From assembly GCA_012295275.1 (NCBI GenBank), contig CM022676.1:2604001-2668000 (forward strand): a stretch of 64,000 nt of DNA. The letters run 5' to 3'. The DNA comes from Chrysomallon squamiferum. Its lineage: Eukaryota; Animalia; Mollusca. Each line of letters begins with the position of its first letter. Position 1 is the first letter of the stretch. The notes beneath the pieces are model-generated. The model did no database searches. It saw only the letters and a program-made list of their open reading frames with translations, and was not told where the DNA came from. Below, one piece after another: positions 1,512-36,922 of the stretch. The position numbers and the translations under genes were made by a program.

Positions 1512-1829
1512 TTGCAAAAGGAGCTCTAAGTGTTAACCTCACAGAATATACAAAGTTTTGATAAGTTTCAGTAACATTCCAGGTTCCTGCGTGTTTTGTT
1601 TCATTAAAAGTAAAAATCTCAAGAGTTATGACATGTGTAGACTGTCTTGTTACATTGTAATTAAATCCAGAACCACACGGTCCACCTGATGCAAAACATG
1701 CTCCTTGTGCTGATCCATTCAGTATGAAAATAACAGATCCTGTTATGTCTTCTTCACTGTTTGTGTAGATCAAAACAAGAGACTGACCAAGCACTGGCAT
1801 TTTCTTGTCTGTGGTAAGAATTCTATTTC
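1512..1829 (-). CDS. Gene A exon 2: Ig-like domain (atypical cysteines)
   Basis: aag| acceptor, |GTAAGT donor, 318 nt, phase 1-1, open. NRILTTDKKMPVLGQSLVLIY...VIFILNG...ITLEIFTFNETKHAGTWNV has an Ig beta-strand pattern. Confidence 0.75.
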
Positions 1830-3239: not shown

Positions 3240-3294
3240 CTAGACAGTAACTAACAAGGATGACAGAAACAAGTAAATATCGAAGCAGCGCCAT
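3240..3294 (-). CDS. Gene A exon 1: signal peptide MALLRYLLVSVILVSYCL(G)
   Basis: ATG at 3294, hydrophobic core, G|GTAAGC phase-1 donor matching exon 2. Confidence 0.8.
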
Positions 3295-6263: not shown

Positions 6264-6322
6264 TTACAACAAATCAAAGTACTGAATTAGATGCTGTTCT
6301 AGTTTTGCATCGTTCTCAGCAT
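6264..6322 (-). CDS. Candidate terminal exon of gene B (DAENDAKLEQHLIQYFDLL*)
   Basis: ttcag| acceptor, phase-1 compatible with the ITAM exon, ends TAA, conserved in copy 2. Assignment speculative. Confidence 0.3.
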
Positions 6323-6383
6323 CTGAAATCGCCATTGGTTATTCATAGCTTCTAGTCTGGGAAAATTTCGAAAATATTCCACA

Positions 6384-6446
6384 CTACCAATCCAGACTGT
6401 ATCTGACAATCACGATAGAAACAAGAAAGTATCCAAACAGCGCCAT
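6384..6446 (-). pseudogene. Orphan paralogue of gene A leader exon (MALFGYFLVSIVIVRYSLD)
   Basis: Clear similarity to 3240-3294 and its upstream flank; lacks the phase-1 donor. Confidence 0.6.
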
Positions 6447-6762
6447 TTTGTTTGTTCTGACTAAACTTGGTTTTTTTTTAAACGATTTTGTACTCTGTCT
6501 ATGTCATCTGCAACTCTCTCTATTACTACAGGTCTCTCTCTCTGTCTCTCACTGATATTTTCAGATGTGTCCGAAAAATTTCATTTTAGTAATTTTAGAT
6601 GTTGAATCGGTTATACAGTATTTTCATATATATTCACTAGAAAGAAATAAATAATAAATAAATAAATAAATAAAAAGGACAAAAACGATCTGGGATAAAA
6701 AAGAATTGAAATAACTACAGAGACTCTGGAAGCCATGATTTCTAACACGTTTCAAAAATATG

Positions 6763-6810
<48 letters not shown>

Positions 6811-6978
6811 GGCATACAAAACTCCTCATAACGAATAAGGAATAAAAACATTTCAGATTATCTTTACAAATACACATTTTATTTCAAGATAGTAATAAGT
6901 TATTATCAGTTCTCATCGTAGTTGGATAAATTTTAATATGATAAATAAAAGTGAATAATTCTAAATAAATGTTATTAC

Positions 6979-7077
6979 CTGAACTCGATGTGTTATCAGA
7001 CACCCGAAGCTTTTCATACGCAGGTGCATCACGTGATTGTAAACACTCGTACTGAGTTGTAGGTATTTGACCATGTT
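6979..7077 (-). CDS. Gene B cytoplasmic exon with ITAM (EHGQIPTTQYECLQSRDAPAYEKLRVSDNTSSS)
   Basis: tag| and |GTAATA, 99 nt, phase 1-1, open; YxxL-x7-YxxL. Confidence 0.8.
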
Positions 7078-7574
7078 CTATAAATTTATTAATATTTTCA
7101 TAAACACATTTTGATAAACTATTTTTCCGTTATATTTTCTAGAAAATATTAATTAAAGAAATCGTTACCGGAATTTGAAAAAAATATTAGGCGCTTATTT
7201 TTAATTCATTTAATTTACTGCAGCTTCTTTGAGTTTATAACATATATTATATAAAACATACATAATAATGTTCTTTCAGTCTTTGTCGAAATTACTTATT
7301 AATTGTTCAAACTCTTCACGAAGTGAATAAAATATGTGACTGTATGTAACTGTCTGCCTCTTTCTGTGTGTGGGTTTATGCATAAGGTTTGTTAATATGT
7401 ATGAAAAATTGGCATCTGATTTTGAATTTCCGCAATCATCTTGATTAATACTTCAAGATCTATTTCAGTTTGAATCGCTTTATGTATTAAAGAGACAGCT
7501 TCTTTGCAAAGGAAATTGCTCTAGTAAAACTAGGATCTAAAAAAGATACTCAAAACACTGGATTTCTATTTTAC

Positions 7575-7624
7575 CTGAACGAACAGCTGTTTCCTGGACT
7601 AAATCCATTGATACATCTTGATAT
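7575..7624 (-). CDS. Gene B cytoplasmic exon (YQDVSMDLVQETAVRS)
   Basis: cacag| and |GTAAAA, 50 nt, phase 2-1, fits both neighbours. Confidence 0.7.
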
Positions 7625-7945
7625 CTGTGAAACATAATAAGAAAAATATACTGGTATCTCATTCAAGTATATTTGGTTTTACTTGAATTGCTGCAACGAG
7701 ACAATCGCATATTTTGCAGAGGTATTTATGTTAATAGAGCAATGTAAATATTTTATTAGAGGTTAATATATTTTCAATCCTGATACAATTTTGCAGCAAA
7801 ATTTACTTTAAACATAAATATTATAGTTATGCACTTTGGGCATACTAGTGTCTATTTCGAACAAGGTCTGCAGGTACTTTAGTAAATAGATACTGAATAT
7901 CTCTTATCACAGTAGTTATCAGAAATATTTCAACACACTACTCAC

Positions 7946-7979
7946 GTATGTGTTTCATTTTCATTTTTGCTGTCTGAAC
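7946..7979 (-). CDS. Gene B juxtamembrane mini-exon (SDSKNENETH)
   Basis: tacag| and |GTGAGT, 34 nt, phase 1-2. Confidence 0.7.
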
Positions 7980-8295
7980 CTGTAACATATATGCACAGTT
8001 GTATTTTACAAGCTAAATAATAATTCTTACATTGAAATAATTGGATTTGATTTTCATTTTTAAACAACCAATGAAAAAAGAAAGAAACAATAATAAAAAT
8101 AAATAAATGCACGCACACGCACACACACCCACATACATATATATAGTTAAAGAGACAGAAAAAATATTAAAAATAAAAAGTAAGAAAGAAAGATAATTTT
8201 AAAATAAATAATTAAAAACTACAATAAAATAAATACGAAATATTCAAAACAGTAAAACAATATCTAATGAATGAGTCTAAAATTTAACTGACTAC

Positions 8296-8421
8296 GGATG
8301 GTGTAACCTCTTCTCCTCAAGATGAACAGAATAATTATTGCAGGAAAGCAGAGCAGAAGTATTCCTGCTACCAGACCAATTCCAATTCCAATTCCAAGTG
8401 TTGCCATGGACGAAGATTCTT
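8296..8421 (-). CDS. Gene B transmembrane exon
   Basis: tgtag| then ESSSMATLGIGIGIGLVAGILLLCFPAIIILFILRRRG (hydrophobic helix + basic stop-transfer). Donor position uncertain. Confidence 0.8.
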
Positions 8422-8688
8422 CTACAGTGATTATAATAACAAGTTTAACTACATAAATCAATTATCCGCATTTACGTTTAATTTTTTAAATTATAATTCT
8501 TTCTTTTAAAGATCTTTCATTAAATAACGCAAATAGTTTGGACAATGTCAAATTCACCAGAACCTGTATACAAGCAATGTAAAAAACTAAACAAAAACAC
8601 ACAGAGAATAAATAAATAAATAAATGAATAAATATTTTGCTGAAATTGTAAATGAAGAATCGAAAACTATATATATTATTTTACTTAC

Positions 8689-8976
8689 TAACAGTAGTAC
8701 AAACAGTCAAACAGTAACGACTGTCAGTTTTATTTGCAGAAGAGTAAATTTTAAGGTGGTAGGAAGAATTGGACTTGAGATGAGAAATGAGTAAAGAAAA
8801 AGTATTGACGTGTGTCTTATTGTCTGACACTTGCAGACTGATAGACTGGTCTTCAGTAGACAAGCGTTGTTCGACAGTGAATCTAGTGAACTTGTTTGTG
8901 TTGTATTTCCACTTGAGATCTACTGAAGTTTCTAACACATTTGTGCAGTAACACCATTCATGAGCTGATTCAAGAA
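8689..8976 (-). CDS. Gene B fibronectin type III exon
   Basis: 288 nt, phase 1-1, ttag| and |GTAAGT; TSVDLKW...FTVEQR...ISHLKSNSSYHLKIYS is an FN3 signature. Confidence 0.8.
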
Positions 8977-9022
8977 CTAAAACGTGGAAAAAGATTTATG
9001 TTGTGTTTTAATTTCATCTGCA

Positions 9023-9026
<4 letters not shown>

Positions 9027-9091
<65 letters not shown>
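9027..9091. repeat. (TA)n microsatellite
   Basis: Directly visible. Confidence 0.95.
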
Positions 9092-9094
<3 letters not shown>

Positions 9095-9226
9095 TTTAGT
9101 AAAACCTGCATATAAAAATTGATACTGGCTAATTCTGACAGGGATGGAAACAACAAAAACAAAGAAATGAAAAATCATTTGTACTTGCTAACAAAGGTCA
9201 CATGAAAAAAGTGGAAATAAAGTTAC

Positions 9227-9474
9227 CTGTAACAATGACACTGGCAGATCCTGACACTGAAGTGTTAAAAGAAGTTTTTGAAATTGCTGAGCACGTGTAC
9301 TCTCCTTGGTCTGACTGTTGAAATGAGCAGATTTGAAACAGAGAACCATCAGTGAGATATTTTGTACCAGTTCGCCATTCAAATACAACACTGTCTGGAT
9401 TACTGTCAGCTGTACAGCGTAGTATCACAAGTTTTCCCAGTTCAACTCTGATAAAATTCTTACTCTGGGTGCAT
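9227..9474 (-). pseudogene. Gene B membrane-proximal Ig (I/C2-like) exon, frameshifted by a 13-nt deletion
   Basis: LRCTADSNPDSVVFEW...DQGEYTC. Exon is 248 nt from the canonical acceptor (APRVRILSE); the missing 13 nt are present in copy 2. Confidence 0.8.
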
Positions 9475-9825
9475 CTACACAGATTGAAATACAAATATAT
9501 GTAAAAAGATGAAAAACAACAACATAATACATGCAAAGAAAAAAAATACAAGAAAAAATACAATTAATCTAAGAGGAAACAGAAAACAGATCACATAGAT
9601 TGCATTATTTCGCAGAAAACTACTGAGGAGAAGTGGTAAAATACAGTTAACGTACATTGTTTATTTCTGTTTATTATTTATAAGGATGATATGAGCATGT
9701 CGAAAGCAATATTCAAATATCTTCCTAAATTATGTCAATATTATTTACTAATTTACTTAATGTGAAAGTCATAATAAACAAATAAAACAAAGAAACAAAA
9801 CAACAACAACATTTAAACAACATAA

Positions 9826-10109
9826 AATATACATTCGTATGAAGAGAATTAGATTCAAGTCTCTGTTGTCCACTTCTGTCTCTGAAGAGATTTCCAGCTG
9901 TACATTTGTACCAGCCTCCATTGTCTTCCTTTGTAGTTGTCAGAATTTAAATCCTGTATTTTGAATGTCTGTTCCATTTCTAATCCAATAAAACTGAGCT
10001 GCTGCATTTCCTTTACCACTGTCAGGTAAAGAACAAATGAAAGAGCCTCCTGTGTTTTCTAGCCATGGCTGTTTTGGATCTCATGAAAGTGTTGGTTTGT
10101 TTGGAGGAT
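9826..10109 (-). pseudogene. Gene B upstream Ig exon, disrupted
   Basis: PPNKPTLS*DPKQPWLENTGGSFICSL...QFYWIRNG / frameshift / KEDNGGWYKCTAGN. In-frame stop, frameshift, and donor reads TTATGT. Confidence 0.75.
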
Positions 10110-13006: not shown

Positions 13007-13103
13007 TCACTCTTTTCCTTGCTCCTTTTTCGATTTCTTTTTCTTTCGCTTTTCAGTTTCTTTTTCAGTTACTTCAGATGGTGGCAGCCTACGTGGTGTT
13101 TTC
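13007..13103 (-). CDS. Gene C candidate terminal exon, Lys/Glu-rich tail (KTPRRLPPSEVTEKETEKRKKKKSKKEQGKE*)
   Basis: Follows a pyrimidine tract and is phase-2 compatible, but the acceptor reads AT not AG in both copies. Confidence 0.4.
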
Positions 13104-13182
13104 ATCACAAACAAAAGAAAGACAAAATAAAGTGTATCTATGTGTATTTGTGAGCATCTGTTTAATCTGTCTGTCTGTTTTT

Positions 13183-13261
<79 letters not shown>

Positions 13262-13267
13262 GTATGT

Positions 13268-13356
<89 letters not shown>

Positions 13357-13365
13357 AGTGTGTGT
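13183..13365. repeat. (TG)n microsatellite
   Basis: Directly visible; counterpart ~39855-40050. Confidence 0.95.
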
Positions 13366-13402
13366 TTGAATTATACATTTAGTCACAGACTTACACATTT
13401 AC

Positions 13403-13436
13403 CCATCTGATGGTTGACCTGTAAGATTCCATGAAC
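13403..13436 (-). CDS. Gene C cytoplasmic mini-exon (SWNLTGQPSD)
   Basis: ttttcag| and |GTAAAT, 34 nt, phase 1-2. Confidence 0.5.
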
Positions 13437-14184
13437 CTGAAAAGTGTAAACTGATTATTTAAAGTACTTTAAAATAAATTAAATTAAATTAAACTATTAA
13501 AATCAATTTAAACTTGAAAAATGTTTCCAGGTTTCACTGATTTAACTTATAAGCATTTGTAAATTAAGTAAGTTAGGTTTACAGGGCAGTTGTTTCCTCT
13601 TTTTAAATTCGTTTTTATGTAAACATATTTTTAACACAAACAGATCAACTTACCTAGATATATTATAATTTAAAAAAATTAAAAAAGATAACAAAAACTT
13701 ATCGATTAAAATACATATCACATATGTGAATTTTTAAGTCAAATTAAATTAGTTTAAGAAGTTTTGAAATGTGAATCACTAATACAAAGTTATCAAAGCA
13801 GATGTATAAATATGAAATTAATATTTGACATATGCATGTTACAAAACAATATTTAAAAAATGAAGCTCAATTTAAAATAAAAACAAAAATCTACAACCAT
13901 TCTTAAAACTTTGTCTCACACATTTAGATTAAAATAGCTTGAAAAGGATAAAAAAAATTCCAAAAGAATTAACTTTCGTTTTATTTTGTATTTAAAAAAT
14001 ACATTTAATATTTCATATTTCATCATCATCATTATTATAATATTTCATTCTTTTTATTCATGTATTTGATTTTGTTGTCAAACTGAAGAAATTTCTTAAA
14101 TAAGATTTTGTTTCTTTTCAATTAACGTTATGTTGAACATTTAACGTGTACGTCTAAAGCTTGGATCAGTGGTAAACCACCTAC

Positions 14185-14286
14185 CTCTCCGTAACAGTAC
14201 CACAATGACAACCACTGCTCCACAGAGCAGAGACAAAGCACACAAAACTGGCCCTGCCACATAAACATCGCTTTTACACAAACTGC
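14185..14286 (-). CDS. Multi-pass TM exon (TM5: SLCKSDVYVAGPVLCALSLLCGAVVVIVVLLRR)
   Basis: ttcag| and |GTAGGT, 102 nt, phase 1-1. Confidence 0.75.
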
Positions 14287-14334
14287 CTGAAATTAACACA
14301 ATTATGAAATCAGTAACACTTTTTGTATTAACTA

Positions 14335-14680
14335 GCACAGTTATGATAATACAAATGTGTTACACTGCTTAACTTAACTAGTATCTGATATTCAAACACA
14401 AATATGTTACACTTTAAATTAACTACAACTGTAATATTTAAATACAAATGTGTTACAGTTTAAATTAATTAGAACTGTGATATTCAAATACAACTGTTAC
14501 ACTGTTGAAAATAACTAGAACTGTAATATTTAAATACAAATATCTTACACTGTTTAAATTAACTACAACTGTAATATTTAAATACAAATGTGTTACACAG
14601 TTTAAGTTAACTAGAACTGTGACATTTAAATACAAATTTGTTACAGTTTAAGTTAACTAGAACTGTGATATTCAAACCAA
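14335..14680. repeat. Minisatellite, ~45-48 bp unit (aactgtaatatttaaatacaaatgtgttacac...aattaactag), ~7 copies
   Basis: Visible tandem units; counterpart ~41020-41360. Confidence 0.85.
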
Positions 14681-14787
14681 AAACCATTCACTGTGAAATA
14701 TTACTGTCGAATTGATAAGGACAGACATTCTAACATTTAATTCAAACCTAATCTGCAGTATAGGTAAGGCAATATGCATTTACTTAC

Positions 14788-14883
14788 ATGTATGTTCCAT
14801 ACTAAGACAGCCCACAGAAATCAGCCCAAGAGCAATTTGTATGAAACCAAAAACCACAAGGACAATCCATCGTTTTTTGAAAT
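14788..14883 (-). CDS. Multi-pass TM exon (TM4: FKKRWIVLVVFGFIQIALGLISVGCLSMEHT)
   Basis: aag| and |GTAAGT, 96 nt, phase 1-1; not in the ORF track. Confidence 0.75.
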
Positions 14884-15171
14884 CTTCAGAAAAGGATATA
14901 AAATGTGTACACCACTAATATATCATTGTTTAGTTATTTCACTTCTACATTAAATAGTTTATCTCCAAAAGACTTGAAAAATAATAATAAATAAATAAAT
15001 AAATAATTAAATTTGATTAACTGATACTGTATTTTCAGGTAGTCTTAAAGGCAGCCAAACCTATATTATGTATGTTACCTAAAATAAACAAATAGAAAAC
15101 TGTCTTCCATAATGAAACTGGTTTGTAACCAGTTACTTGGCTTTATGAAATGTGTTTAAAATTATACTTAC

Positions 15172-15273
15172 TCAGAAGGGTCAGACACAGAAATAAGTAG
15201 ACAACTACAACAACCATCCAGACAGCCAGAACCACACTAAGAACCACTGTACAGTCACATTCACAGACTTCAG
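15172..15273 (-). CDS. Multi-pass TM exon (TM3: EVCECDCTVVLSVVLAVWMVVVVVYLFLCLTLL)
   Basis: ttttcag| and |GTAAGT, 102 nt, phase 1-1; not in the ORF track. Confidence 0.8.
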
Positions 15274-15893
15274 CTGAAAATAAAACATTAAAAGTTTACA
15301 TCTTTAACATTTATTTTATACATTAGCAGTTACCAGATGTTAATCATATTTATGATCTTATATTAGTATTAGAAAAAGCTGATCATATTATGGATTACTC
15401 TTATTTCTTAAACAGGCATCTTCTTAGACCAGATACCAAGTAGAATGCTGTTAAACAAACCAGTAATTTGTATATCCTGTGAATTTCTAATCAGATATAA
15501 CTTTTAAAAATGATATATATCTAATTTCTCTAAAGAATTAAATTCTTAAAAAAAAAAAAAAAAAAAAAAAGATTCAAATGCTGGATGTATTTCTGTGCCG
15601 TTATAATTTACGAGACTCATGTAAAAATATTATAAACATTTCAAATGTTCTTGTTATTTAGAACACTTCAATTGAAATAATTCAATATTTGTAAGCAAAC
15701 CCTATAATATTTCTATATCATATTTCAGAATATTATGCACTATATACATTGCCTTACCTCTTAACTTAGAGAGTGTCTTAGTAAGTGTGGTTGTTTATAT
15801 TAGTTAATAGTGATATATAGGGGGTTCATGCATATAGATACTGTGTATAGTTAGAAAATCTAAATAAATATGATCCAAAAAACAAAGGCACTG

Positions 15894-15965
<72 letters not shown>
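15894..15965. repeat. (ATT)n microsatellite
   Basis: Directly visible. Confidence 0.95.
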
Positions 15966-16440
15966 GGTGGTAGTAAGAGTTTTAATGTTCATCTTCCAAA
16001 TCTTATCTCAGGAATATGATTTAAAATGTTGAAAACAACTGAAACACGTATTTATCTGTAAATATGCAGCCCACATCTGTTTTAGTTGATATTTTAAGGA
16101 CCAGATTTTCTTTTAGATACAAAATGTAACCAGTTTATTTATCAATTTTTCAAAAAAGCTCTTCAGTATTAAAAGTGTAGTTTCATTTTTGTTTGTACAG
16201 AAGAACAGAAGAAGGTTTTGCATTTCCAACCAATTCTATAATCTGACAGACTGTGAACTAATTGATGTGCCTGACAGAGAGATTATCTGCAACAGAGATG
16301 CAGTTTTAGGTGGTGATAAAAAAGAAAATTTGAAAACACAACATTAATCAATCTGACCGTATTTTCATGCAATGAAGAAGTTGAAATAAAATCAATAAAA
16401 TGGGCTGTGAATGTTTTGTATTTAGCTACCAACACCTTAC

Positions 16441-16520
16441 ATGCAAAACATACACAAAGTAAAATATATCTAACATCAGGAAACAAACTGAGCAATCTGA
16501 GTGATTGTTGCCTACAGCAT
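16441..16520 (-). CDS. Candidate loop/TM2 exon (CCRQQSLRLLSLFPDVRYILLCVCFA)
   Basis: ttgttccag| acceptor with phase-2 start matching the TM1 exon end; donor GTAAGG (copy 2 GTGAGG). An alternative donor at 16436 could join 16286 (IISLSGTSI). Confidence 0.55.
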
Positions 16521-19500
16521 CTGGAACAAATAAAAACACATTTGTGTTATTTAACTGTGTAGTAATACTGCTTTAAACTGTTTTCAGTTTATACAGTGAA
16601 AGTGAATGTGAGACAAATATGAGCTTTACTCCATAAACAAGTCACACATCTAAAATGAAAACATTATTTGTGCAACAAAAACTGATAAGAAAAATGAATA
16701 AAATATCTTTATATAGGATTTATAATGAGCAATTGAGAAAATCACAATACATTCTTTACATCAAACAAGATTTTAAAAGTTCCACTACTTAAATTTCAAA
16801 CAATTCTTTTACACTGCTCCTTGAAAAAATAAAAAATCTTGAACACATTTTTATATAGTTTTTCTATATAACTTTATAACTTTTCATTGATCTATTGTTA
16901 ACAGCAACATATATTTAAAAGTGTCTCTCTCTCTATGCTAGAAAGTGAGTGATTGTAGTAGTTAAATTTAATTGGATCTGATTTTTAAGAGTAAAAGTAA
17001 TAATAATATACAACAGATTTTGTATCTGTTACAGGATGAGTCATTACAATATTTACATGGGTGAAACTTCATGTTAATTCATTCATTACAATAGCAATTT
17101 ATGAAGCTGGTCATATTTGTTAACACTACCAATCTACAAATACTTAAACTTTGTATAAATACTATTAATCATGTAGCAAATACCAAATATAAAATTTATA
17201 ACTGAGTTATAACTGCAAATATTATTAACAGACAACAAGGGCAGTAAGACATTTTAGATGCATCATATTCAGTGGTTATAACTGGACTGATATGATAGTT
17301 AAAAATGCTCTTGTCTAGCTGATTGTATTGTAAGTTTATTATAGGACTATAACATGTACATTTTCTGTTCTCTGTTTTGCTATAATGAAATGTGACCTTT
17401 GATGGCCATGCCGTGTCAAATAGATGTCCAAATGTTATCTGCATCCCTCATAACAAGCCAGCTTAATTATTCTCAGATACAATTTGCAGTTAGTAATATT
17501 AACAAATATCGAAAATTACAATTTTAATATTTAATGTAATCACAACAAATCTGATACATATTTATAATCATAATAATAATTATTAGTGGTAATTAAAAAA
17601 CAAAAATCAATAAAAAATAAAAATTAACAGGAATAAAGTATGGAGTAAAATGTATAATATAACAAAACCAGTGAATGCTGACTTAATAAAGAAAATTAGT
17701 ACATCTATTTATTTCATGATGTTTTAGTATCATTATCAAAGTTCAAAACTGAACTGAAGATTATGTTTAATTATATTCACCATTATTTTTCTATTTAATG
17801 TGATCCTTATACTTATGAGATTTCAGTTTTGCCTCTGTTTTGTGTGAAACAGAAGATGGGATAAAACATTGTCACAGAAAAAAAATTGAAATACTATCTA
17901 TTACTTAAATAATTACCAGCTTGTTAAAGGAAGGAGTACTCACATGTATATATGTATACAAACACTGACTGACTGTGTTGTTTCTGCTGTTGTAAATTAT
18001 ATAACAATATATTAAACTATTTAAAAATCAACACAATTTTTAAACCATATGAAAACTATCAATAAATAGAAAAATAAGTAAAAGAGTATACTAATTTCAA
18101 AAACAAACACAAACCTAAACATAAATCTAAGAATGACATTTCAAAGTAATTTTGAGTAAATATCTTAAAAAAATAAAAGTATAAAAAATAAAAAGTCCGG
18201 GTTTCATGCTTTGTATTTAACAGTAACATCATGTTATAACTACACCAGCCATGATATAGAACTTTAAACAGCGGTCTGAGTAAAGACCTTTATTCAGCTA
18301 ATATTTTAAAACAGCCAGACACTTAGAAACAAGCAGCTAAATATGCCACAGCATTAATTATAAGTCTGAGACTGTGACCACTAGAAGCATGCTTGAACAC
18401 ATGTATGATGGGAAAGCATGGCTAAAAATTACCCACATCCAATGATTAGCAATACTGAATTGTATTATTGTAAATAAAGCTAATTTAAAAAGGAGATTTT
18501 GAAGTCAGTACTTTTAACAAAAGTATTAAAGTATAAGTTTAATGTAATAACAAATTTTTCATTTTTATTTTAGGAGTAAAGGATGAGATGAGACATAACA
18601 GTATGAAAGACTCCAACCAAGTGACAGTTATTTAACTAATCTATAAATACACATCATGTATTCATATACAATTACCTATTAATATAATAATAATTAACAG
18701 TTTTATAGCTAAATAGTAAAATAATATAAAAAATTATGTAACTTTTCAAACTGGACTTTATCAGAAAAATTATATTAATCACCAATACAAATATTATAAT
18801 TATAATTATTATTTTTATTAAAATTAATTAGTGATTTTGCAAAATAAGATTTCAGTTTTTTTGTATTAAAACCAGTGGAAGGGGAACTCAGGTTACATGA
18901 ATGATTAGCACAAGGTCAGGGCTAACAATGTGATTATGTTACTTACTGCTTGATGGTGTTGTTTCTGTTCATGTTGATTCTAATAGAAACACATTAATAG
19001 GAATAAAATAAATAATGTTTATGAATTAAACTTTAGTATGGTAAAAACAAGTGAAGTGGAGAAAATACATTTTAAAAAAGAAAATTAGAAATATCCAATA
19101 AATAATAATATTAATAACAAAATTATTATTACTGTAATATCAAAGGACAAGGTGATGCAAAATGTGTAATCTGATTACTAAAACTAGACAAGTAACAGTA
19201 ATATCTAATTTACAAACTATAAGTGCAGATAATAAATCAGAAATATAATCATATCAAATGTAAACATTCTGGTCCGTCTCATCAAAATGGTCATCCAGGA
19301 TATTCCACAACAAAACATACTGACAGAGCAGGCCAACAATTGGTAATTTCTGGGTTCAAACCATACATATTCAACATATGTATTGGTGAAACTTTACATG
19401 TATAAAAACCAGGTATATAATAGTAATAGTGATGCTCTATCATCTATTGAAGAAGGAAAGAAAGAATGAAAGAGAAAATAAATTTGTTTCAAAGTTTTTC

Positions 19501-19634
19501 ACAATTTTATTTAATATATTTTAATCTGTCATGGAAGTTCTTACTGCAAACATTATATTCAAAACTGTTAAAAAGTGTTTATAAAAGGTTTTACAGTATA
19601 ATAAAACAGCAGATTTGCATTTATGTCACTCTCT

Positions 19635-19680
<46 letters not shown>

Positions 19681-20629
19681 CAGGCATTAAGCTGTAACTT
19701 TATCTATGTTAATCAGCATATTACTCAGTGTGGAACTAAAACAGTCAACATAGTATAAACTTCTTTTTAAAGCTTTTTTTTTTGCTATATCAGAATTAGA
19801 AGATAGAAATAAAGCTATTCCTTGATTAGTTAAGCAGAATCCACAAACAATCACTGGCATCTAGAAATTATCTGAAATAATGAAGAACGTAGCTAAGTGT
19901 ATTGAGCTGAAGGAAAAAGAAAAGTCTGGAATAAAAAAGAAATTAATTTTCAAACTGCTTCATTTGTTTATAACTTGATTTTCACATCAATAGTAGTAAT
20001 ATGTTTTGTTTTCTGTTGATCAACATTATTGTGATTCTGTCTGGTTGGATGTTGGCTCTCTGCTGTATTGTTGCTCACGTCAGTTTTATTCAGTGAATCA
20101 GTGACTGACTGTTGACAAACTTCAGATCTTGTGTGTTCTTCACAGACATCTTTACTGACTGGGTTGATTCGCAGGTTTTACATTTGTCTGATTATATGAG
20201 TAATCTTCAGAAATTTCATTATCTTCATCACTTCCATGGTTCCAAGACATATTGTGTGAAGATTAATTACCAATACATAAAAATCACGCCTTCTCTTATT
20301 TTCAATGGTAATGTTAGAAAATCAATTATAACAAACGGCATCAAACGCGTTTATCTAATTTTATAAACTCTTCCCTTACTTTGTTACATAATCAGTAATA
20401 AGAAAAATGAAGTGTTTCAAATGTATCAATGTTGATTAAGCTTTATAAGTTTGTCTTTGTTTCTACACTGAAACCCACATATCCATGAAAATATTTACTA
20501 CAGATAATATTTTAAAAGTAAATGCGGCATCTCAAGAAAAAAAGAGATGAGACAAGCGGGGCTTCCACAACCCAAGTTTCACTTTCATTTACATTGAGAT
20601 AATAGGAAAGGAACTTGAAACTTTGGTCT

Positions 20630-20905
20630 TACATTATAAAATAAATTATGTTGTTAATATTAATTATACTACAAAGACTACACATATAAAATAAATCTCC
20701 TAGTTAATATTAATTATACTACAAACACTACACATATAAAATAAATCTACTTTGTAAAATTAATGATTCTAAGAATATAAAACTGCAAGCAATACAGATA
20801 TAAAATAAATCTCCTGGCTACTATTAATTCTACTACACATTTAAAACACCAAATAATGCAGACATAAAATAAATATTGTTGATAATGTTAATTATACTAC
20901 AAAGA
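20630..20905. repeat. Degenerate minisatellite, ~46 bp unit (ataaaataaat...ttaatattaattatactacaaa)
   Basis: Visible tandem units; copy 2 (~47312-47700) has about two extra units. Confidence 0.75.
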
Positions 20906-21174
20906 CAAAACATGAAAACGAAACAGACAAAACTTTAAGAAAAAATAATAAAAAATTAGCCCTCCACTACTGAAAATATGAATCTCGTGATGGTTTATTA
21001 AGAATTATTTAACATAAAAACAACCATAGGTTTGACATCTTCGATATATAAGACACTGTATTTTTTAGGTTAAATACGTATATATATTTAGGTATACATA
21101 TAGATAGATAGATACATAGATAGATGTAATTACGTGAGATGTATGTATGTCTAAGTTATCTATGTATTTATGTA

Positions 21175-21222
<48 letters not shown>

Positions 21223-21322
21223 GATATGGAAGGAAAAACACGAAGAGACAAACAGACATGTTGGTAGACTACTGAAGAGAGGAAAAGACAGTCAAAACTG
21301 CTTCACCGTTTCACAGATTTAC

Positions 21323-21440
21323 ACGACCAAGAAAAGGCTGACTACGACGAGTAACACAGAAGAGACTACAGCAACGGCAGTTACAGCAGTTTTGTTACAT
21401 TCACAATCGATGATATTTTCTTTTACAGTCGATGTGACAT
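21323..21440 (-). CDS. Gene C stalk + TM1 exon (VTSTVKENIIDCECNKTAVTAVAVVSSVLLVVVSLFLV)
   Basis: ccag| phase-1 acceptor, donor GTAAAT (GTAAGT in copy 2), 118 nt, phase 1-2. Confidence 0.7.
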
Positions 21441-22103
21441 CTGGCTTGGGAGGCAACGTTAAATATGTTCATATAATTAATGATTATAAACCAAGTCAGT
21501 ATCATCCATGATTACACCGAATATACAAACACAATATTTGATAAAATTGTTTAGTCCGTGTATTCAAATTAATTTTCAACTTCAAAGTAAACACAGTCAG
21601 CTTTACTGTAAAGATGTGTTGACAAAATAATTATTTAAGACATTACATATATAGTGTGTATTATCTATATTTTTATAGCTATCCTCATTATTACATCTAA
21701 ATCTTATAAATTTAGGAGTAACTGTACAGCTTACTAAGCAGTATAAACCACGAGTTTCAAACTTGTAAAGATATCGGCATCAAATAACATAAAATAAAAA
21801 TATTGTAGTATCTTTTCTTTCTCGCTTATTGACTTAGATATTTTTACACAAGTACAAATAGCAGACATAAAACACATGAACATTTCATTTATCTGAAATG
21901 GCATCTTTACTTACTTTCTCTAGTAATGTTCTATAATCAGTAATAAAAGAAGTGAATTCACCCAAATACGTCAACAACTAATATTATATATAGAACCAAG
22001 TTTTAACTTTCTTTCGTTGGTAATGTTATATAATCAAGAACAAAAGAAATGAAATTCTCTAAATGCACGACAACTCATAAAAATAAATCATGTTTTCACT
22101 TAC

Positions 22104-22505
22104 TTAGTATGTTGATGTTTTCAGAACTTTCAGAGAAATGTGGACTACCATCAAGTCTGTTATAGCCAATTACACATAAATATTCTCCTGAATCACTAAA
22201 AGTCATTCCTGTCAGTTGAATCTGGATAAAAGATCCTGATTTGTCATCGTTGTCAGACTTTCCTGTCACTGTCGCTCTGGATCCAAAGTTATTTACATCT
22301 TTTAAAACAGCTTTACCTCCATTCTTTAGAGTGATAGCAGAAGCTATCATAACACTAGTACTGGGATTGCTGAGAAGTCTTCTGCTCACTGATACAGAAG
22401 TAAGTATATCAACCTCACTGATAATGTTACCAAGACTACATCTGACTGTCACAGGAACTCCTTCATAAACAGGACTTGGGCTGATTGTGAGTTGGGCGGC
22501 TTCAC
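22104..22505 (-). CDS. Gene C V-like Ig domain exon (resembles molluscan VIgL/FREP-type IgSF domain)
   Basis: 402 nt, phase 1-1, tacag| and |GTAAGT; VTVRC...IASA...RATVTG...FIQIQL...DSGEYLC. Family resemblance is from recall, not a search. Confidence 0.88.
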
Positions 22506-23011
22506 CTGTAAGTAAACATGAACAAAGAAATAACTTAAAAATGTAATAAACGTTTTCAATGTCAATGTTATATATTTCTTAATCTGAATAATACGTTTTT
22601 CATATAAATCGGAAGAAAACATTAATTTTAATTTAATGAGTTTGCTTCCATATTTCAAATATTTCATCACATATTGTAGCGCAATTGAAGAATTTTTCTA
22701 TGTCAAATTCATAGAATAATAGATTAGTAATGTATTTAAATAAATTTAAACCACTAAGTTTGAAACAAACAAAAAAATGAAACAATAATATTCTCAAGAG
22801 ATTATTTAAAATGCAAAACATTAATAATAGAATAAGAACATTTTTCGAAATAAAATGTAAATAAAAACACAGTATTTAAGAGGAAAGTATAATTGACGGG
22901 AGTAATATGATTATATTTTCAAACACACGGATACACTCAGATAGAAAGCAGGACAGACAGACAGGCAGAGAGAGAGACACAGCCATGCACACAATACAAA
23001 TAGATTTCATT

Positions 23012-23100
23012 TATATTTCAAAAATAAATTATATAATGTAACGGTCTGAATGTAGATATAAATATACTGCAATATCAGTCAGATAACATCGCATGTACAT
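23012..23100. repeat. Left arm of ~88 bp imperfect inverted repeat (partner 24719-24805)
   Basis: caaaaataaattatataatgtaac...cagataacatcgcatgtac is the reverse complement of gtacatgcgatgttatctg...gttacattatataatttatttttg. Confidence 0.85.
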
Positions 23101-23254
23101 CAAGCAGCTATATTTTGATAAAGATAATCAGTTACAAATAAAAAACAACAACTCGAGAACTATAAATATATGACACCCAACACTGCACTTATCCAAACTA
23201 AAAATCACTTATAAACCTGTTTATAAAATACTTGTATTTAGAGCTAAACAAAAA

Positions 23255-23309
23255 CAGTTGAAGTCAATGTTAAACTTGTTAATAAAATAACAGTCATTGT
23301 TGTGGACAT
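23255..23309 (-). pseudogene. Degenerate duplicate of gene C leader exon (MSTTMTVILLTSLTLTST), no donor
   Basis: Near-identical to 23483-23537 but followed by TTTTT instead of GT. Confidence 0.75.
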
Positions 23310-23482
23310 CGTTAAACAATCTAAGAACAACGTAAATGAAGAAATGTAACACTAAGAGATAAAAAAAGAAATCAGTTCAAAAACCTATTTATAAAATACT
23401 TCATCGTCTCATCGACATGTCTGTGAAAGACAAGTGTTATAGTTATTAAGACATAAACAAAAACAAATAAAGTAGAACTTAC

Positions 23483-23537
23483 CAGTTGAAATCAATGTTA
23501 AACTTGTTAATAAAATAACAGTGATTACTGTGGACAT
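23483..23537 (-). CDS. Gene C exon 1 signal peptide MSTVITVILLTSLTLIST(G)
   Basis: ACCATG context, 55 nt, G|GTAAGT phase 1. Confidence 0.85.
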
Positions 23538-23583
23538 GGTTAAAAAAATCTAAGAAAAACGGAAACGAAGACGTGTAACAGCG

Positions 23584-23634
23584 AGCTATATCTTAATTGC
23601 TTTATACCGGATGTAAATTACGGGTCATGTGACC
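23584..23634 (-). promoter_or_regulatory. Putative gene C core promoter: TATAAA, ETS-like CCGGATGT, M-box-like GTCATGTGAC
   Basis: Motifs 65-100 bp upstream of the ATG; motif match only. Confidence 0.45.
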
Positions 23635-24124
23635 GGTGACATAAAGAAACTATACCCTCTGTGATTGTTGTCTCCCCTAGTCTACTGTAAAATCTAAGAA
23701 ATAAAATCTGCGATTAAAGCACTGACTTAGTTTTTTTAACTGTAAATAATCTTTATAAACTGTTGAATGGTCTGCACATATCGAGACAGTTGTTGCACAC
23801 TCAACAGGAGATGTTATTGTTTTATTTTAAATACAAGGCGCTAGTCAAGCACTGGAAGAAAGCAGATACGAAATAACATGAAAATGAAAGAGAGAATACA
23901 CAAATGGAAGGGGAGAAGAAAGTATAAGAAAGGAGAAAGAGAAGAAAACAGAATTTAGAACATATAATCTATTTATGCTTTATAAATATTATAAATAATT
24001 ACTTTTGTCCACTGTTAAAGATTTTCCTGTCTAATTATAAATAACTATCTCACAATCCTTTGTAAAACATTTCACATTTAAATAGACTTTAAGATTAAAT
24101 TTATTAAACAACAATAACAATGAA

Positions 24125-24208
<84 letters not shown>

Positions 24209-24718: not shown

Positions 24719-24805
24719 GTACATGCGATGTTATCTGATTGATGCTGCAGAACACTAATACATATATTCAGACGGTTACATTATATAATTTATTTTTGAA
24801 GTATA
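24719..24805. repeat. Right arm of inverted repeat (partner 23012-23100)
   Basis: See left arm. Confidence 0.85.
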
Positions 24806-32531: not shown

Positions 32532-33599
32532 ATTTTTATATATTATTTATTTCACTTTATTTATTATTTAACACAATTGCCAACTTTCATTGATTTACTT
32601 AAAGTCGTATAACTTTATCTGAAATGTTTCTATTTATTAAATACAAATTTTAGTGTTTTGAATATAAATAAATAGTCAATTATAATTTGGTTTGTTATAT
32701 TATTTCTATTTGTCACTTGAGTTCTTTTCATCTTTCATCACTTATTACATTTATGATACTCGTTCCATGTAACGTCTTTGTATTTGTATAATAATATAAA
32801 ATTATTAAATTCACATGCACACGTACACATTCTGGAAAGATACACAACATAGAAACTTTCTTTATAATAGAGAATATGTTGTGTTTCAATTAGCGCTTGT
32901 CAAAAAAGCCTCACGATTCAATGGTACAATGAGAAAACCAAAATAAAAACAACTTGAGTTTTGTTACAATTATAGACTATGCTTCTAGATCAGGCAAAAT
33001 GTAATCTGAAGTTAACTTGAAAACCTTGTAATATATCAGACAAGAGTTGCATCCCTTTAAGTTTATCGACTTGATAACAGATTAATTAAATAAAAGTTAC
33101 AACAAATCAAAGTACTGAATTAGATGCTGTTCTAGTTTTGTATCGTTCTCAGCATCTGAAAACGCCATTGGTTATTCATAGCTTCAAGTCTGGGAAAATT
33201 TCGAAAATATTCCACATTACCAATCCAGACTGTATCTGACAATCACGATAGAAACAAGAAAGTATCCAAACAGCGCCATTTTGTTTGTTCTGACTAAACT
33301 GTGTTTTTTTCCGAGTACACGATTTTGTACTCTGTCTAGGTCATCTGCAACTCTCTCTATTACTACAGGTCTCTCTCTCTGTCTCTCACTGATATTTTCA
33401 GATGTGTCCGAAAAATTTCATTTTAGTAATTTTAGATGTTGAATCAGTTATACAGTATTTTCATATACATTCCTAGAAAGAAAGAAAGAATAAATAAATA
33501 AATAAAAAAAAAGGACAAAAACGATCTGGGATAAAAAAAGAATTGAAATAACTACAGAGACTCTGGAAGCCATTATTTGTAAGACGTTTCAAAAATATG

Positions 33600-33656
<57 letters not shown>

Positions 33657-33831
33657 TACTATTGGCATACAAAACTCCTCATAACGAATAAGGAATAAAA
33701 ACATTTCAGATTATCTTTACAAATACACATTTTATTTCAAGATAGTAATAAGTTATTATCAGTTCTCATCGTAGTTGGATACATTTTGATATGATAAATA
33801 AAAGTGAATAATTCTAAATAAATGTTATTAC

Positions 33832-33930
33832 CTGAACTCGGTGTGTTATCAGACACCCCAAGCTTTTCATACGCAGGTGCATCACGTGATTGTAAACACT
33901 CGTACTGAGTTGTAGGTATTTGACCATGTT
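33832..33930 (-). CDS. Gene B copy 2 ITAM exon (YECLQSRDAPAYEKL intact)
   Basis: Same splice sites as 6979-7077, open. Confidence 0.75.
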
Positions 33931-34426
33931 CTATAAATGTATTAATATTTTCATAAACACATTTTGATAAACTATTTTTCCGTTATATTTCTAGAAAATA
34001 TTAATTAAAGAAATCGTTACCGGAATTTGAAAAAAATATTAGGCGCTTATTTTTAATTCATTTAATTTACTGCAGCTTCTTTGAGTTTATAACATATTTT
34101 ATATAAACCATACCTAACAATGTTCTTTCAGTCTTTGTCGAAATTACTTATTAATTGTTCAAACTCTTCACGAAGTGAATAAAATATGTGACTGTATGTA
34201 ACTGTCTGCCTCTTTGTGTGTATGGGTTTATGCATAAGGTTTGTTAATGTGTATGAAAAATTGGGATCTGATTTTGAATTTCCGCAATCATCTTGATTAA
34301 TACTTCAAGATCTACTTCAGTTTGAATCGTTTTATGTATTAAAGAGACAGCTTCTTTGCAAAGGAAATTGCTCTAGTAAAACTAGGATCTAAAAAAGATA
34401 CTCAAAACACTGGATTTCTATTTTAC

Positions 34427-34476
34427 CTGAACGAACAGCTGTTTCCTGGACTGAATCCATTGATACGTCTTGATTT
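34427..34476 (-). CDS. Gene B copy 2 cytoplasmic exon (Y to N: NQDVSMDS)
   Basis: Counterpart of 7575-7624. Confidence 0.6.
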
Positions 34477-34797
34477 CTGTGAAACATAATAAGAAAAATA
34501 TACTGGTATCTCATTCAAGTATATTTGGTTTTACTTGAATTGCTGTAACGAGACAATCGCATACTTTGCAGAGGTATTTATGTTAATAGAGCAATGTAAA
34601 TATTTTATTAGAGGTTAATATATTTTCCATCCTGATACAATTTTGCAGCAAAATTTACTTTAAACATAAATAATATAGTTATGCACTTTGGGCATACTAG
34701 TGTCTATTTCGAACAAGGTCTGCAGGTGCTTTAGTAAATAGATACTGAATATCTCTTATCACAGTAGTAATCAGAAATATTTCAACACACTACTCAC

Positions 34798-34831
34798 TTA
34801 TGTGTTTCATTTTCATTGTTGCTGTCTGAAC
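34798..34831 (-). pseudogene. Gene B copy 2 mini-exon with acceptor AG to AC
   Basis: gaacgtgtaac vs gaacctgtaac in copy 1. Confidence 0.6.
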
Positions 34832-35147
34832 GTGTAACATATATGCACAGTTGTATTTTACAAGCTAAATAATAATTCTTAAATTGAAATAATTGAATTT
34901 GATTTTCATTTTTAAACAACCAATGAAAAAAGAAAGAAACAATAATAAAAATAAATAAATGCACGCACACGCACACACACCCACATACATTTATATAGTT
35001 AAAGAGACAGAAAAAATATTAAAAATAAAAAGTAAGAAAGAAAGATAATTTTAAAATAAATAATTAAAAACTACAATAAAATAAATACGAAATATTCAAA
35101 ACAGTAAAACAATATCTAATGAATGAGTCTAAAATTTAACTGACTAC

Positions 35148-35273
35148 GGATGGTGTAACCTCTTCTCCTCAAGATGAACAGAATAATTATTGCAGGAAAG
35201 CAGAGCAGAAGTATTCCTACTACCAGACCAATTCCAATTCCAGTTCCAAGTGTTGCCATGGACGAAGATTCTT
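35148..35273 (-). CDS. Gene B copy 2 TM exon
   Basis: LGTGIGIGLVVGILLLCFPAIIILFILRRRG. Confidence 0.75.
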
Positions 35274-35540
35274 CTAGAGTGATTATAATAACAAGTTTAA
35301 CTACATAAATCAATTATCCGCATTTACGTTTAATTTTTTTAATTATAATTCTTTCTTCTAAACATCTTTCATTAAATAACGCAAATAGTTTGGACAATGT
35401 CAAATTCACCAGAACCTGTATACAAGTAATGTAAAAAACTAAACAAAAACACACAGAGAATAAATAAATAAATAAATGAATAAATATTTTGCTGAAATTG
35501 TAAATGAAGAATCGAAAACTATATATATTATTTTACTTAC

Positions 35541-35828
35541 TAAAAGTAGTACAAACAGTCAAACAGTAACGACTGTCATTTTTATTTGCAGAAGAGTAAA
35601 TTTTAAAGTGGTAGGAAGAATTGGACTTGAGATGAGAAATGTGTAAAGAAAAAGTCTTGTCGTGTGTCTTATTGTCTGACACTTGCAGACTGATAGACTG
35701 GTCTTCAGTAGACAAGCGTTGTTCGACAGTGAATCTAGTGAACTTGTTTGTGTTGTATTTCCACTTGAGATCTACTGAAGTTTCTAAAACATTTGTGCAG
35801 TAACACCATTCATGAGCTGATTCAAGAA
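35541..35828 (-). CDS. Gene B copy 2 FN3 exon
   Basis: 288 nt, open, same splice sites. Confidence 0.78.
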
Positions 35829-35874
35829 CTAAAACGTGGAAAAAGATTTATGTTGTGTTTTAATTTCATCTGCA

Positions 35875-35918
<44 letters not shown>

Positions 35919-36050
35919 TTTAGTAAAACCTGCATATAAAAATTGATACAGGCTAATTCTGACAGGGATGGAAACAACAAAAACAAAGAAATGAAAAATC
36001 ATTTGTACTTGCTAACAAAGGTCACATGAAAAAAGTGTAAACAAAGTTAC

Positions 36051-36284
36051 CTGTAACAATGACACTGGCAGATCCTGACACTGAAGTGTTAAAAGAAGTT
36101 TTTGAAATTGCTGAACACGTGTACTCTCCTTGGTCTGACTGTTGAAATGAGCAGATTTGAAACAGAGAACCATCAGTGAGATGTTTTGTACCAGTTCGCC
36201 ATTCAAATACAACACTGTCTGGATTACTGTCAACTGTACAGCGTAGTATCACAAGTTTTCCCAGTTCAACTCTGATGTGACTCT
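36051..36284 (-). CDS. Gene B copy 2 Ig exon (original acceptor deleted; in-frame cryptic tatcag| possible)
   Basis: 234 nt, phase 1-1 from the cryptic AG; SHIRVELGKLVILRC...DQGEYTC. Confidence 0.6.
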
Positions 36285-36637
36285 CTGATAAAATTCTCTG
36301 ATACAAATATATGTAAAAAGATGAAAAACAACAACATAATGCATGCAAAGAAAAAAAATACAAGAAAAAATACAATTAATCTAAGAGGAAACAGAAAACA
36401 GATCACAGAGATTGCATTATTTCGCAGAAAACTACTGAGGAGAAGTGGTAAAATACAGTTAACGTACATTGTTTATTTCTGTTTATTATTTATAAGGATG
36501 ATATGAGCATGTTGAAAGCAATATTCAAATATCTTCCTAAATTATGTCAATATTATTTACTTATTTACTTAATGTGAAAGTCATAATGAACAAATAAAAC
36601 AAAGAAACAAAACAACAACAACATTTAAACAACATAA

Positions 36638-36922
36638 AATATACATTCGTATGAAGAGAATTAGATTCAAGTCTCTGTTGTCCACTTCTGTCTCTGAAGA
36701 GATTTCCAGCTGTACATTTTTACCAGCCTCCATTATCTTCCTTTGTAGTTGTCAGAATTTAAATCCTGTATTTTGAATATCTGTTCCATTTCTAATCCAA
36801 TAAAACTGAGCTGCTGTATTTCCTTTAACCACTGTCAGGTAAAGAACAAATCAAAGAGCCTCCTGTGTTTTCTAGCCATGGCTGTTTTGGATCTGATGAA
36901 AGTATTGGTTTGTTTGGAGGAT
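36638..36922 (-). pseudogene. Gene B copy 2 upstream Ig exon, disrupted
   Basis: Acceptor AG to TG, extra +1 insertion, TAC to TAA stop, plus the frameshift and dead donor shared with copy 1. Confidence 0.75.

What the first reader, a model, noticed from the sequence alone, without database searches (positions are those of the whole stretch)
6979..8976. Canonical ITAM on an FN3-TM receptor tail kept intact while the Ig exons decay
Seen: YECL-QSRDAPA-YEKL matches YxxL-x6-8-YxxL exactly and is identical in both copies. FN3, TM and tail exons stay open and in phase in copy 1, with an extra TYQDV motif and a possible terminal IQYFDL (ITIM-like). The two upstream Ig exons carry stops or frameshifts. 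All ectodomain exons are phase 1, so skipping the broken exons, or splicing from gene C's V exon, would stay in frame and give a V-FN3-TM-ITAM chimera.
Basis: partly seen in the sequence, partly recalled or inferred. Interest (0 to 1): 0.7.

Follow-up and report, generated by a model that had tools for sequence, protein, structure and literature searches.

The report
Decaying snail ITAM receptor gene fragment
A real immune-activating motif (ITAM) sits in the leftover back half of a duplicated receptor gene, likely from a snail; both copies are broken and are likely decaying remnants of an ordinary activating-receptor family rather than a newly rebuilt receptor.

Summary
The motif, the exons and the frame are real. 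YECL-x7-YEKL lies on the minus strand (7051-7007; copy at 33904-33860). RNA contigs confirm every junction from FN3 to the ITAM exon, and 2 of 2 full-tailed homologues (Gigantopelta aegis) keep the ITAM.

The claim that it was kept while the Ig exons decay is not supported. The copies differ by only 2.1%, so 45 identical bases has P=0.39. FN3-to-ITAM exons carry 14 non-synonymous and 2 synonymous changes, and copy 2's tail is broken too.

The segment is the 3' half of an SP-Ig(n)-FN3-TM-ITAM family gene; its 5' exons are absent from the window. In all 4 RNA runs (one study) FN3 is fed by the Ig exon; no V-to-FN3 join is listed. All 4 hold a form with a stop one codon before the ITAM exon. Read-through joins from gene C and into a next-gene-type exon occur. 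The last exon is likely VNIYENTV, not IQYFDL.

Verdict: likely a pseudogene fragment of an oyster-CgIgR-like receptor family, apparently undescribed in gastropods; low-to-moderate interest.

The parts
7007..7051 (-). ITAM YECL-QSRDAPA-YEKL (YxxL-x7-YxxL), copy 1
   Evidence: the four key residues are kept in Gigantopelta P0002 and P0036
6979..7077 (-). tail exon T3 (ITAM exon), phase 1-1
   Evidence: spliced from T2 in RNA contigs
7575..7624 (-). tail exon T2 (YQDV...). Its last full codon, TCA at 7578-7576, reads TGA in one RNA form in 4 of 4 runs
7946..7979 (-). tail exon T1 (34 nt); acceptor lost in copy 2
8293..8421 (-). transmembrane exon
8689..8976 (-). FN3 exon, open, phase 1-1
   Evidence: Pfam fn3 E=1.2e-5; 48/96 identical to P0002
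9227..9474 (-). Ig exon B, 13-nt deletion in copy 1 (copy 2 lost the acceptor instead); expressed relatives have the 13 nt
9826..10109 (-). Ig exon A, dead: stop in copy 1; frameshift near 9943 and missing phase-1 donor shared by both copies
6611..6636 (-). likely last exon T4 (VNIYENTV-stop); frameshifted in copy 2; not seen among the listed RNA joins
6264..6322 (-).
   Evidence: weak acceptor, downstream of a relic signal-peptide exon
6392..6446 (-). relic signal-peptide exon of the same family, with no GT donor at the phase-1 position
   Evidence: 70% identical to gene A's first-exon region
3240..3294 (-). gene A signal-peptide exon: 5' end of the next tandem family member
1512..1829 (-). 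gene A N-terminal Ig-like exon (D1); a D1-type exon follows T3 in RNA contigs
   Evidence: 47% identical to P0038 residues 19-123
13403..13436 (-). gene C second-to-last exon, joined to the IgB acceptor in run X2
13007..23537 (-). gene C: SP 23537-23483, V 22505-22104, TM-like exons 15273-15172 and 14286-14185, tail exons to its own stop; open in both copies; stalk micro-exons not resolved
33448..36921 (-). copy 2 of the Ig-Ig-FN3-TM-ITAM fragment (FN3 acceptor 35828, ITAM 33904-33860)

Best explanation
The segment is the 3' half (Ig-Ig-FN3-TM-tail) of a member of a tandem receptor family, likely gastropod, that likely signals through its ITAM, and both copies here are likely pseudogene fragments decaying at random. 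Shown: the exons, frame and splice junctions; the homology to Gigantopelta aegis proteins with the same order of domains and the same ITAM; no signal-peptide, D1, Ig2 or Ig3 exon between gene C's stop and Ig exon A; lesions in both copies; no deficit of amino-acid changes. Inferred: intact family members work like oyster CgIgR, where ligand clustering leads to phosphorylation of both tyrosines, Syk/Shark tandem-SH2 docking and haemocyte activation. Inferred: the fragment lost its 5' half and Ig exon A before the roughly 20-kb block was duplicated. Inferred: close copies are transcribed as passengers of read-through from gene C, spliced from one gene's second-to-last exon to the first usable internal exon of the next. 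Copy 1's tail is likely open only because little time has passed (about 1% change per copy).
For: Homology: P0002 (XP_041379358) matches IgA, IgB, FN3 and TM and P0036 also matches the ITAM exon. P0038 shows the family's 5' half (SP-D1-Ig-Ig-IgA-IgB); in the window D1 matches only gene A, downstream, and the two middle Ig domains have no exon of their own. No purifying signal: exons FN3-T3 differ at 16 of 597 nt (2.7%) vs 2.1% background, 14 non-synonymous and 2 synonymous. Changes fall on both copies: with P0002 as outgroup 4 of 14 are derived in copy 1, 3 in copy 2, 7 unresolved. RNA contigs carry copy-2 letters at 8808, 8804, 8790, 8391 and 8367 in 4 of 4 runs. Neutral simulation keeps copy 1 open with P=0.31; 6 of 8 post-duplication lesions in Ig exons has P=0.10. 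A third close form in RNA has intact IgB but a stop before the ITAM exon in 4 of 4 runs, so each form is broken somewhere else. Read-through joins: gene C exon to IgB in X2 and T3 to a D1-type exon in X2 and X3. One X1 contig is identical to the frameshifted IgA over 103 nt, so that lesion is not an assembly error.
Against: Copy 1 has no lesion from FN3 to the stop, and with 16 changes the test has little power to see weak constraint. An open T2-T3 junction is listed in 1 of 4 runs (X1, depth 5.7 vs 8.6 for the stop form). In X3 and X4 part of the T3 depth has no listed upstream join. The RNA is assembled contigs of other individuals from one study, and it differs from both copies at 7005-7007, so it does not report on these exact alleles; rare joins are dropped. 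No genome is held, so a 5' half beyond 64 kb is not excluded. Gene model P0037 joins a signal peptide straight to IgB, so short forms may be natural in this family.
Confidence: 0.7

Rival explanations
1. Copy 1 is a working, shortened receptor: a family signal-peptide or D1 exon outside the window, or an unseen first exon, splices past the dead Ig exons into FN3 and gives an FN3-TM-ITAM or D1-FN3-TM-ITAM protein.
For: All ectodomain exons are phase 1 and copy 1 is open from FN3 to the stop. Exon skipping occurs in the family: IgB joined directly to TM in X3. P0037 is modelled as SP-IgB-FN3-TM.
Against: No family 5' exon lies upstream within the window except copy 2's donor-less relic. The listed FN3 partner is IgB in 4 of 4 RNA runs. 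Copy 1 carries derived amino-acid changes, and both copies have His where RNA and P0002 have Pro near the FN3 start.
Confidence: 0.1
2. Gene C has captured the tail. Its variable V exon is joined to the ITAM module, either V to FN3 or through the gene C-to-IgB join, which copy 1's 13-nt deletion happens to put in frame.
For: Both joins give open frames in copy 1; the second is 489 aa, or 523 aa with both gene C TM exons. The gene C-to-IgB join exists in 1 of 3 RNA runs laid there. Gene C is open and its V exon is unusually divergent between copies.
Against: No V-to-FN3 join is listed. The observed join used an IgB that has the 13 nt, which stops after 15 codons. The 489-aa form has two TMs, both followed by basic residues, so Ig-FN3 would be cytosolic or the ITAM luminal (inference). 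In-frame by chance is 1 in 3. Gene C has its own stop and an AATAAA about 110 nt later.
Confidence: 0.07
3. The two copies are the two haplotypes of one locus laid in tandem by the assembly, and the locus is a polymorphic paired-receptor gene with ITAM-bearing and ITAM-less (stop-before-ITAM) alleles kept in the population.
For: The copies are about 98% identical at aligned bases and are separated by a 6-kb satellite. The stop form is in 4 of 4 runs. In X2 two upstream forms (T1 junction depths 9.8 and 10.2, one about 84% identical in TM) feed a stop junction of depth 20.2.
Against: Both copies still lack a 5' half and a working IgA or IgB. The stop lies about 100 nt before a further junction and would likely trigger nonsense-mediated decay (general knowledge). 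The stop form continues into a D1-type exon rather than a poly(A) exon.
Confidence: 0.13

Closest known systems
Gigantopelta aegis LOC121392011 (XP_041379358), LOC121392000, LOC121391402 and the VSIG10L2-like and CEACAM5-like models (P0002, P0036-P0039)
   Same: Same order IgA-IgB-FN3-TM-tail, about 50% identity, YQD(V/I) plus YxxL-x7-YxxL (YESL/YGKL, YDSL/YEKL); multi-copy.
   Different: Those models have open Ig exons and are uncharacterised predictions. The window's copies have broken Ig exons and no 5' half.
Oyster CgIgR (PMC6994640; passages read)
   Same: Molluscan type I Ig receptor with a canonical ITAM of similar wording (YTEL-x8-YEKL there). Reported there to bind bacteria and recruit CgSyk. 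The family here is predicted to have five Ig-like domains.
   Different: No FN3 is described for CgIgR in the passages read. Orthology was not tested because its sequence was not fetched.
Hydractinia Alr family (PMC9546547; passages read)
   Same: Tandem cluster of Ig-Fn3-like-TM receptors, one domain per exon, ITAM or ITIM tails, with expressed pseudogenes (12 of 41 models are pseudogenes) and partial duplicates.
   Different: Cnidarian, with V-set/I-set/ECS and an allorecognition role. No sequence homology was tested or found here.
cis-spliced read-through (conjoined) transcripts (PMC4450057; passages read)
   Same: [quoted passage not shown] This fits T3 to D1; gene C to IgB fits if dead IgA is skipped.
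   Different: Described in human cells. Here only junction contigs were seen, and T3 to D1 could also be a back-splice within an intact paralogue.

Membership tests
ITAM-bearing immunoreceptor | YxxL/I-x6-8-YxxL/I consensus | tested here: met
   YECL-x7-YEKL; consensus as given in PMC9546547
ITAM-bearing immunoreceptor | motif in the cytoplasmic tail, in frame after one TM, in spliced RNA | tested here: met
   junctions (the open T2-T3 form is listed in 1 of 4 runs)
ITAM-bearing immunoreceptor | motif conserved above its flanks in homologues | tested here: met
   10/15 identical vs 15/35 before and 4/17 after in P0002; 2 of 2 full-tailed homologues keep Y, L, Y, L; both are from one species
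ITAM-bearing immunoreceptor | phosphorylation and Syk/Shark tandem-SH2 binding | not testable with these tools
   needs a doubly phosphorylated peptide assay; no genome is held to look for Syk
Functional gene (this locus) | own first exon or signal peptide and an open ectodomain | tested here: not met
   no SP, D1, Ig2 or Ig3 exon upstream within the window; IgA and IgB broken
Functional gene (this locus) | purifying selection since duplication | tested here: not met
   14 non-synonymous and 2 synonymous changes, pN/pS 2.05; low power
Gigantopelta LOC121392011-type Ig-FN3-TM-ITAM family | collinear homology over Ig, FN3, TM and tail | tested here: met
   tblastn and alignment
CgIgR orthologue | reciprocal homology or shared clade with CgIgR | not tested
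   CgIgR was not among the 5 hits and its sequence was not fetched
ITIM-bearing receptor (IQYFDL) | ITIM in a spliced terminal exon | tested here: inconclusive
   in frame if spliced, but the acceptor is weak and the homologue tail fits T4 instead; the region was not inside either RNA lay

The most novel reading that the evidence does not exclude
A new activating receptor caught at birth: read-through splicing from gene C couples its fast-diverging V exon (23 of 399 nt differ between copies, 19 in changed codons) to the orphaned ITAM module, either directly V to FN3 or through the observed gene C-to-IgB join that copy 1's 13-nt deletion puts in frame. A stop one codon before the ITAM exon in sister copies would supply ITAM-less partners.
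Probability: 0.07. Interest if true: 0.7.

Novelty: new member of a known kind. Interest (0 to 1): 0.27.

Why it matters
The locus itself is likely ordinary birth-and-death debris. The by-product worth keeping is the family: a multi-copy Ig-FN3-TM receptor family with a conserved canonical ITAM in a Gigantopelta-related snail, now labelled only 'uncharacterized', 'CEACAM5-like' or 'VSIG10L2-like'. The Gigantopelta genome paper lists an expanded CEACAM5 family among immunity genes and has no 'ITAM' occurrence. If that expansion is this family (inference), it offers candidate activating receptors for microbe or symbiont recognition in gastropods, testable with a Syk pull-down. If the chimera were real it would show exon capture giving a variable V domain a signalling tail.

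Tried and rejected
No whole genome is held, so paralogues could not be counted.

Word-index protein searches with the FN3 exon and with gene C's V exon among longer proteins found nothing (weak negatives). The exhaustive search found P0002; its other 33 hits were multi-FN3 matches at 23-35% identity and were not followed, except P0001 and P0005, which carry no name.

The ESM Atlas on the P0036 FN3-to-tail part gave only generic FN3-TM clusters at 0.90 or less. The second Atlas request did not complete.

No earlier findings by sequence or by place.

Literature: two searches for ITAM with gastropod or peltospirid terms (top 25 of 86 and top 20 of 5,608 listings seen) showed no description of this family. 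One review's passages mention ITAM only for oyster. Supplements were not read and may bear on this.

Rejected: identity between copies as evidence of selection; IQYFDL as last exon; a TM donor at 8308 (RNA uses 8293). Copy 2's T1 loss would put the ITAM out of frame if T1 is skipped, but an AG 6 nt downstream could rescue the frame (seen, untested).

No complex prediction was run, because ITAM binding needs phosphotyrosine.

Full report
1. Observation. The motif YECLQSRDAPAYEKL is on the minus strand at 7051-7007 and again at 33904-33860, inside a block of about 20 kb that is repeated (5698-12636 with 32532-39466, and 12791-26218 with 39464-52981) on either side of a satellite at about 26.2-32.5 kb. 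In copy 1 the exons FN3 8976-8689, TM 8421-8293, T1 7979-7946, T2 7624-7575 and T3 7077-6979 have canonical ends and splice into one open frame. FN3 passes Pfam's cut-off and IgB matches Ig_3. The pattern alone is weak evidence: 20 non-repeat matches occur in the six frames of this window.

2. What it belongs to. An exhaustive search with the FN3 exon gave 34 hits. One covered the whole domain at 50% identity: P0002, Gigantopelta aegis XP_041379358. A search with P0002 returned 5 proteins, all from that species. P0002 and P0036 run IgA-IgB-FN3-TM-tail and both keep YQD(I) and the ITAM; P0037 ends after the TM, and P0038 and P0039 lack FN3 and TM. In P0002 the 15 ITAM residues are 10/15 identical to the window, against 15/35 before and 4/17 after. 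So the ITAM is a conserved family feature. P0038 supplies the family's 5' half: signal peptide, an N-terminal Ig-like domain (D1), two more Ig domains, then IgA and IgB. In the window D1 matches only 1830-1513 (47%), downstream of the finding, with its signal-peptide exon at 3294-3240; the two middle Ig domains have no exon of their own. The finding is therefore a 3' half-gene between gene C (SP-V-TM-tail, open, with its own stop at about 13007) and the 5' end of the next family member. The host is inferred to be a gastropod related to Gigantopelta from these hits alone.

3. Last exon. An exon at 6636-6611 gives VNIYENTV-stop in frame, has a 0.82-pyrimidine acceptor and lines up with the homologue's end. 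The IQYFDL frame has a 0.45-pyrimidine acceptor and lies just after a relic signal-peptide exon at 6446-6392. It is probably not part of the tail. Neither candidate was inside an RNA lay.

4. Is the ITAM half preferentially kept? The copies differ at 113 of 5386 non-exon bases (2.1%), so 45 identical bases has P=0.39. FN3-T3 differ at 16 of 597 bases, 14 non-synonymous and 2 synonymous (pN/pS 2.05; no deficit, P=0.91). With P0002 as outgroup, 4 of the 14 changes are derived in copy 1, 3 in copy 2 and 7 are unresolved. RNA contigs carry the copy-2 letter at five FN3/TM sites in 4 of 4 runs (121 further rows were not shown). Copy 2's tail has lost the T1 acceptor, the YQDV tyrosine and the frame of the last exon. 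IgA shares a frameshift and a missing donor in both copies, so it died first; IgB broke independently in each. By my count from that alignment, 6 of 8 later lesions fall in the Ig exons (544 of 1170 nt, P=0.10), and a neutral simulation leaves copy 1 fully open with P=0.31. The pattern needs no selection, though the test is weak.

5. RNA. Four RNA runs of one study and one run of unknown kind from a second study hold the stretch, all as contigs. X1-X4 were laid on 6840-9020 and X1, X2, X3, X5 on 9100-10390. (a) The FN3 acceptor is fed by IgB in 4 of 4 RNA runs and no V-exon end is listed (61 and 35 loose-end rows hidden). (b) Expressed IgB has the 13 nt that copy 1 lacks in 3 of 3 RNA runs laid, and T3 differs from both copies at 7005-7007, so the RNA comes from other alleles or paralogues. 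(c) In 4 of 4 runs a T2-T3 junction has C at plus-strand 7577 where the window has G, turning TCA into TGA one codon before the ITAM exon (depths 8.6, 20.2, 11.7, 5.75); the open junction is listed only in X1 (5.7), and part of the T3 depth in X3 and X4 has no listed join. (d) After T3, the contigs of X2 and X3 continue into a D1-type exon (17 of 20 bases match 1801-1820; in frame). In X2 the IgB acceptor is fed by gene C's second-to-last exon (29 of 29 match), which with intact IgB stops after 15 codons. Both joins fit the read-through pattern of PMC4450057 (passages); back-splicing in an intact paralogue is an alternative for T3 to D1. Intact relatives seem to be expressed: the IgA stop is absent from all covering contigs, the IgA frameshift is filled in X2 and X3, and X1 shows another Ig exon joined to IgA. 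X3's IgB is preceded by 30 letters that read as an Ig exon end, but 24 of them also match gene C's intron in the opposite orientation, so that join is ambiguous. One X1 contig is identical to the frameshifted IgA over 103 nt, so that lesion exists outside this assembly. Contig depth is not an expression level and rare joins are dropped.

6. Mechanism. For intact members the most likely mode is that of oyster CgIgR (PMC6994640, passages): Ig domains bind a microbial or cell-surface ligand, the ITAM is phosphorylated and recruits Syk. This step is inferred, not tested. For this locus, the best reading (0.70) is a 5'-truncated fragment, duplicated and drifting, with close copies transcribed by read-through. 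Rivals: haplotype pair with ITAM-bearing and ITAM-less alleles (0.13), a shortened working receptor (0.10), capture by gene C (0.07). One curiosity keeps the last alive: copy 1's 13-nt deletion makes the observed gene C-to-IgB join in frame, giving a 489-aa two-TM ORF, but its predicted topology is poor and the join was not seen on a deleted IgB.

7. Known systems and novelty. ITAM-bearing Ig receptors are known in molluscs (CgIgR), and tandem Ig-Fn3-TM-ITAM clusters with expressed pseudogenes are known in Hydractinia (PMC9546547, passages). Searches (listings only) and passages of PMC11999971 and PMC7895826 showed no description of this gastropod family as ITAM receptors; supplements were not read. 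It is a new member of a known kind, and this particular copy is likely dead. Interest 0.27.

Noticed in passing
window 22505-22104 and 49279-48878 (- strand): Gene C's V exon differs between copies at 23 of 399 nt (19 in changed codons, clustered at residues 30-40 and 102-124) against 1.9% for the block (P about 5e-6): diversifying selection or gene conversion in an open V-TM receptor with no database hit among longer proteins. Possibly more interesting than the finding.
   Followed up: partly
window 15273-15172 and 14286-14185 (- strand), and their copies: Gene C has two 102-nt phase-1 TM-like exons; only the second ends in basic residues. They may be alternative exons, or the first may end a lipid-anchored or two-pass form.
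   Followed up: partly
window 7577, RNA runs X1-X4: A stop codon one codon before the ITAM exon is present in all four RNA runs and is fed by two different upstream forms in X2; possible ITAM-less partner receptors or a shared pseudogene lesion.
   Followed up: partly
window 8423, run X3; 8416-8693, runs X2 and X4: Family isoforms: IgB joined directly to TM (FN3 skipped), and forms with extra bases between FN3 and TM.
   Followed up: no
window 5736-5628, 5446-5354, 6545-6394, 33382-33227 (- strand): Several partial copies (70-79%) of gene A's first-exon region lie between T4 and gene A: traces of deleted tandem family members.
   Followed up: partly
window about 26150-25100 and about 52000-51770 (- strand): Read by eye: the 3' end of another gene, finishing in a hydrophobic stretch and stop like a GPI-anchor signal; in copy 1 its upstream part runs into the satellite. 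My scripted check used wrong boundaries, so this is unverified.
   Followed up: no
window 55893-56646 (+ strand): An Ig-like and an FN3-like domain in one stretch, split by a frameshift near 56320-56400: another broken Ig-FN3 receptor, or an assembly error.
   Followed up: partly
window about 26260-32530: A 6-kb degenerate satellite (unit about 100-110 nt, with a short inverted part) separates the two copies; a possible rearrangement or assembly break point.
   Followed up: no
window 28-369 (- strand): An ORF fragment that looks, from recall, like the endonuclease domain of a non-LTR retrotransposon; not searched.
   Followed up: no
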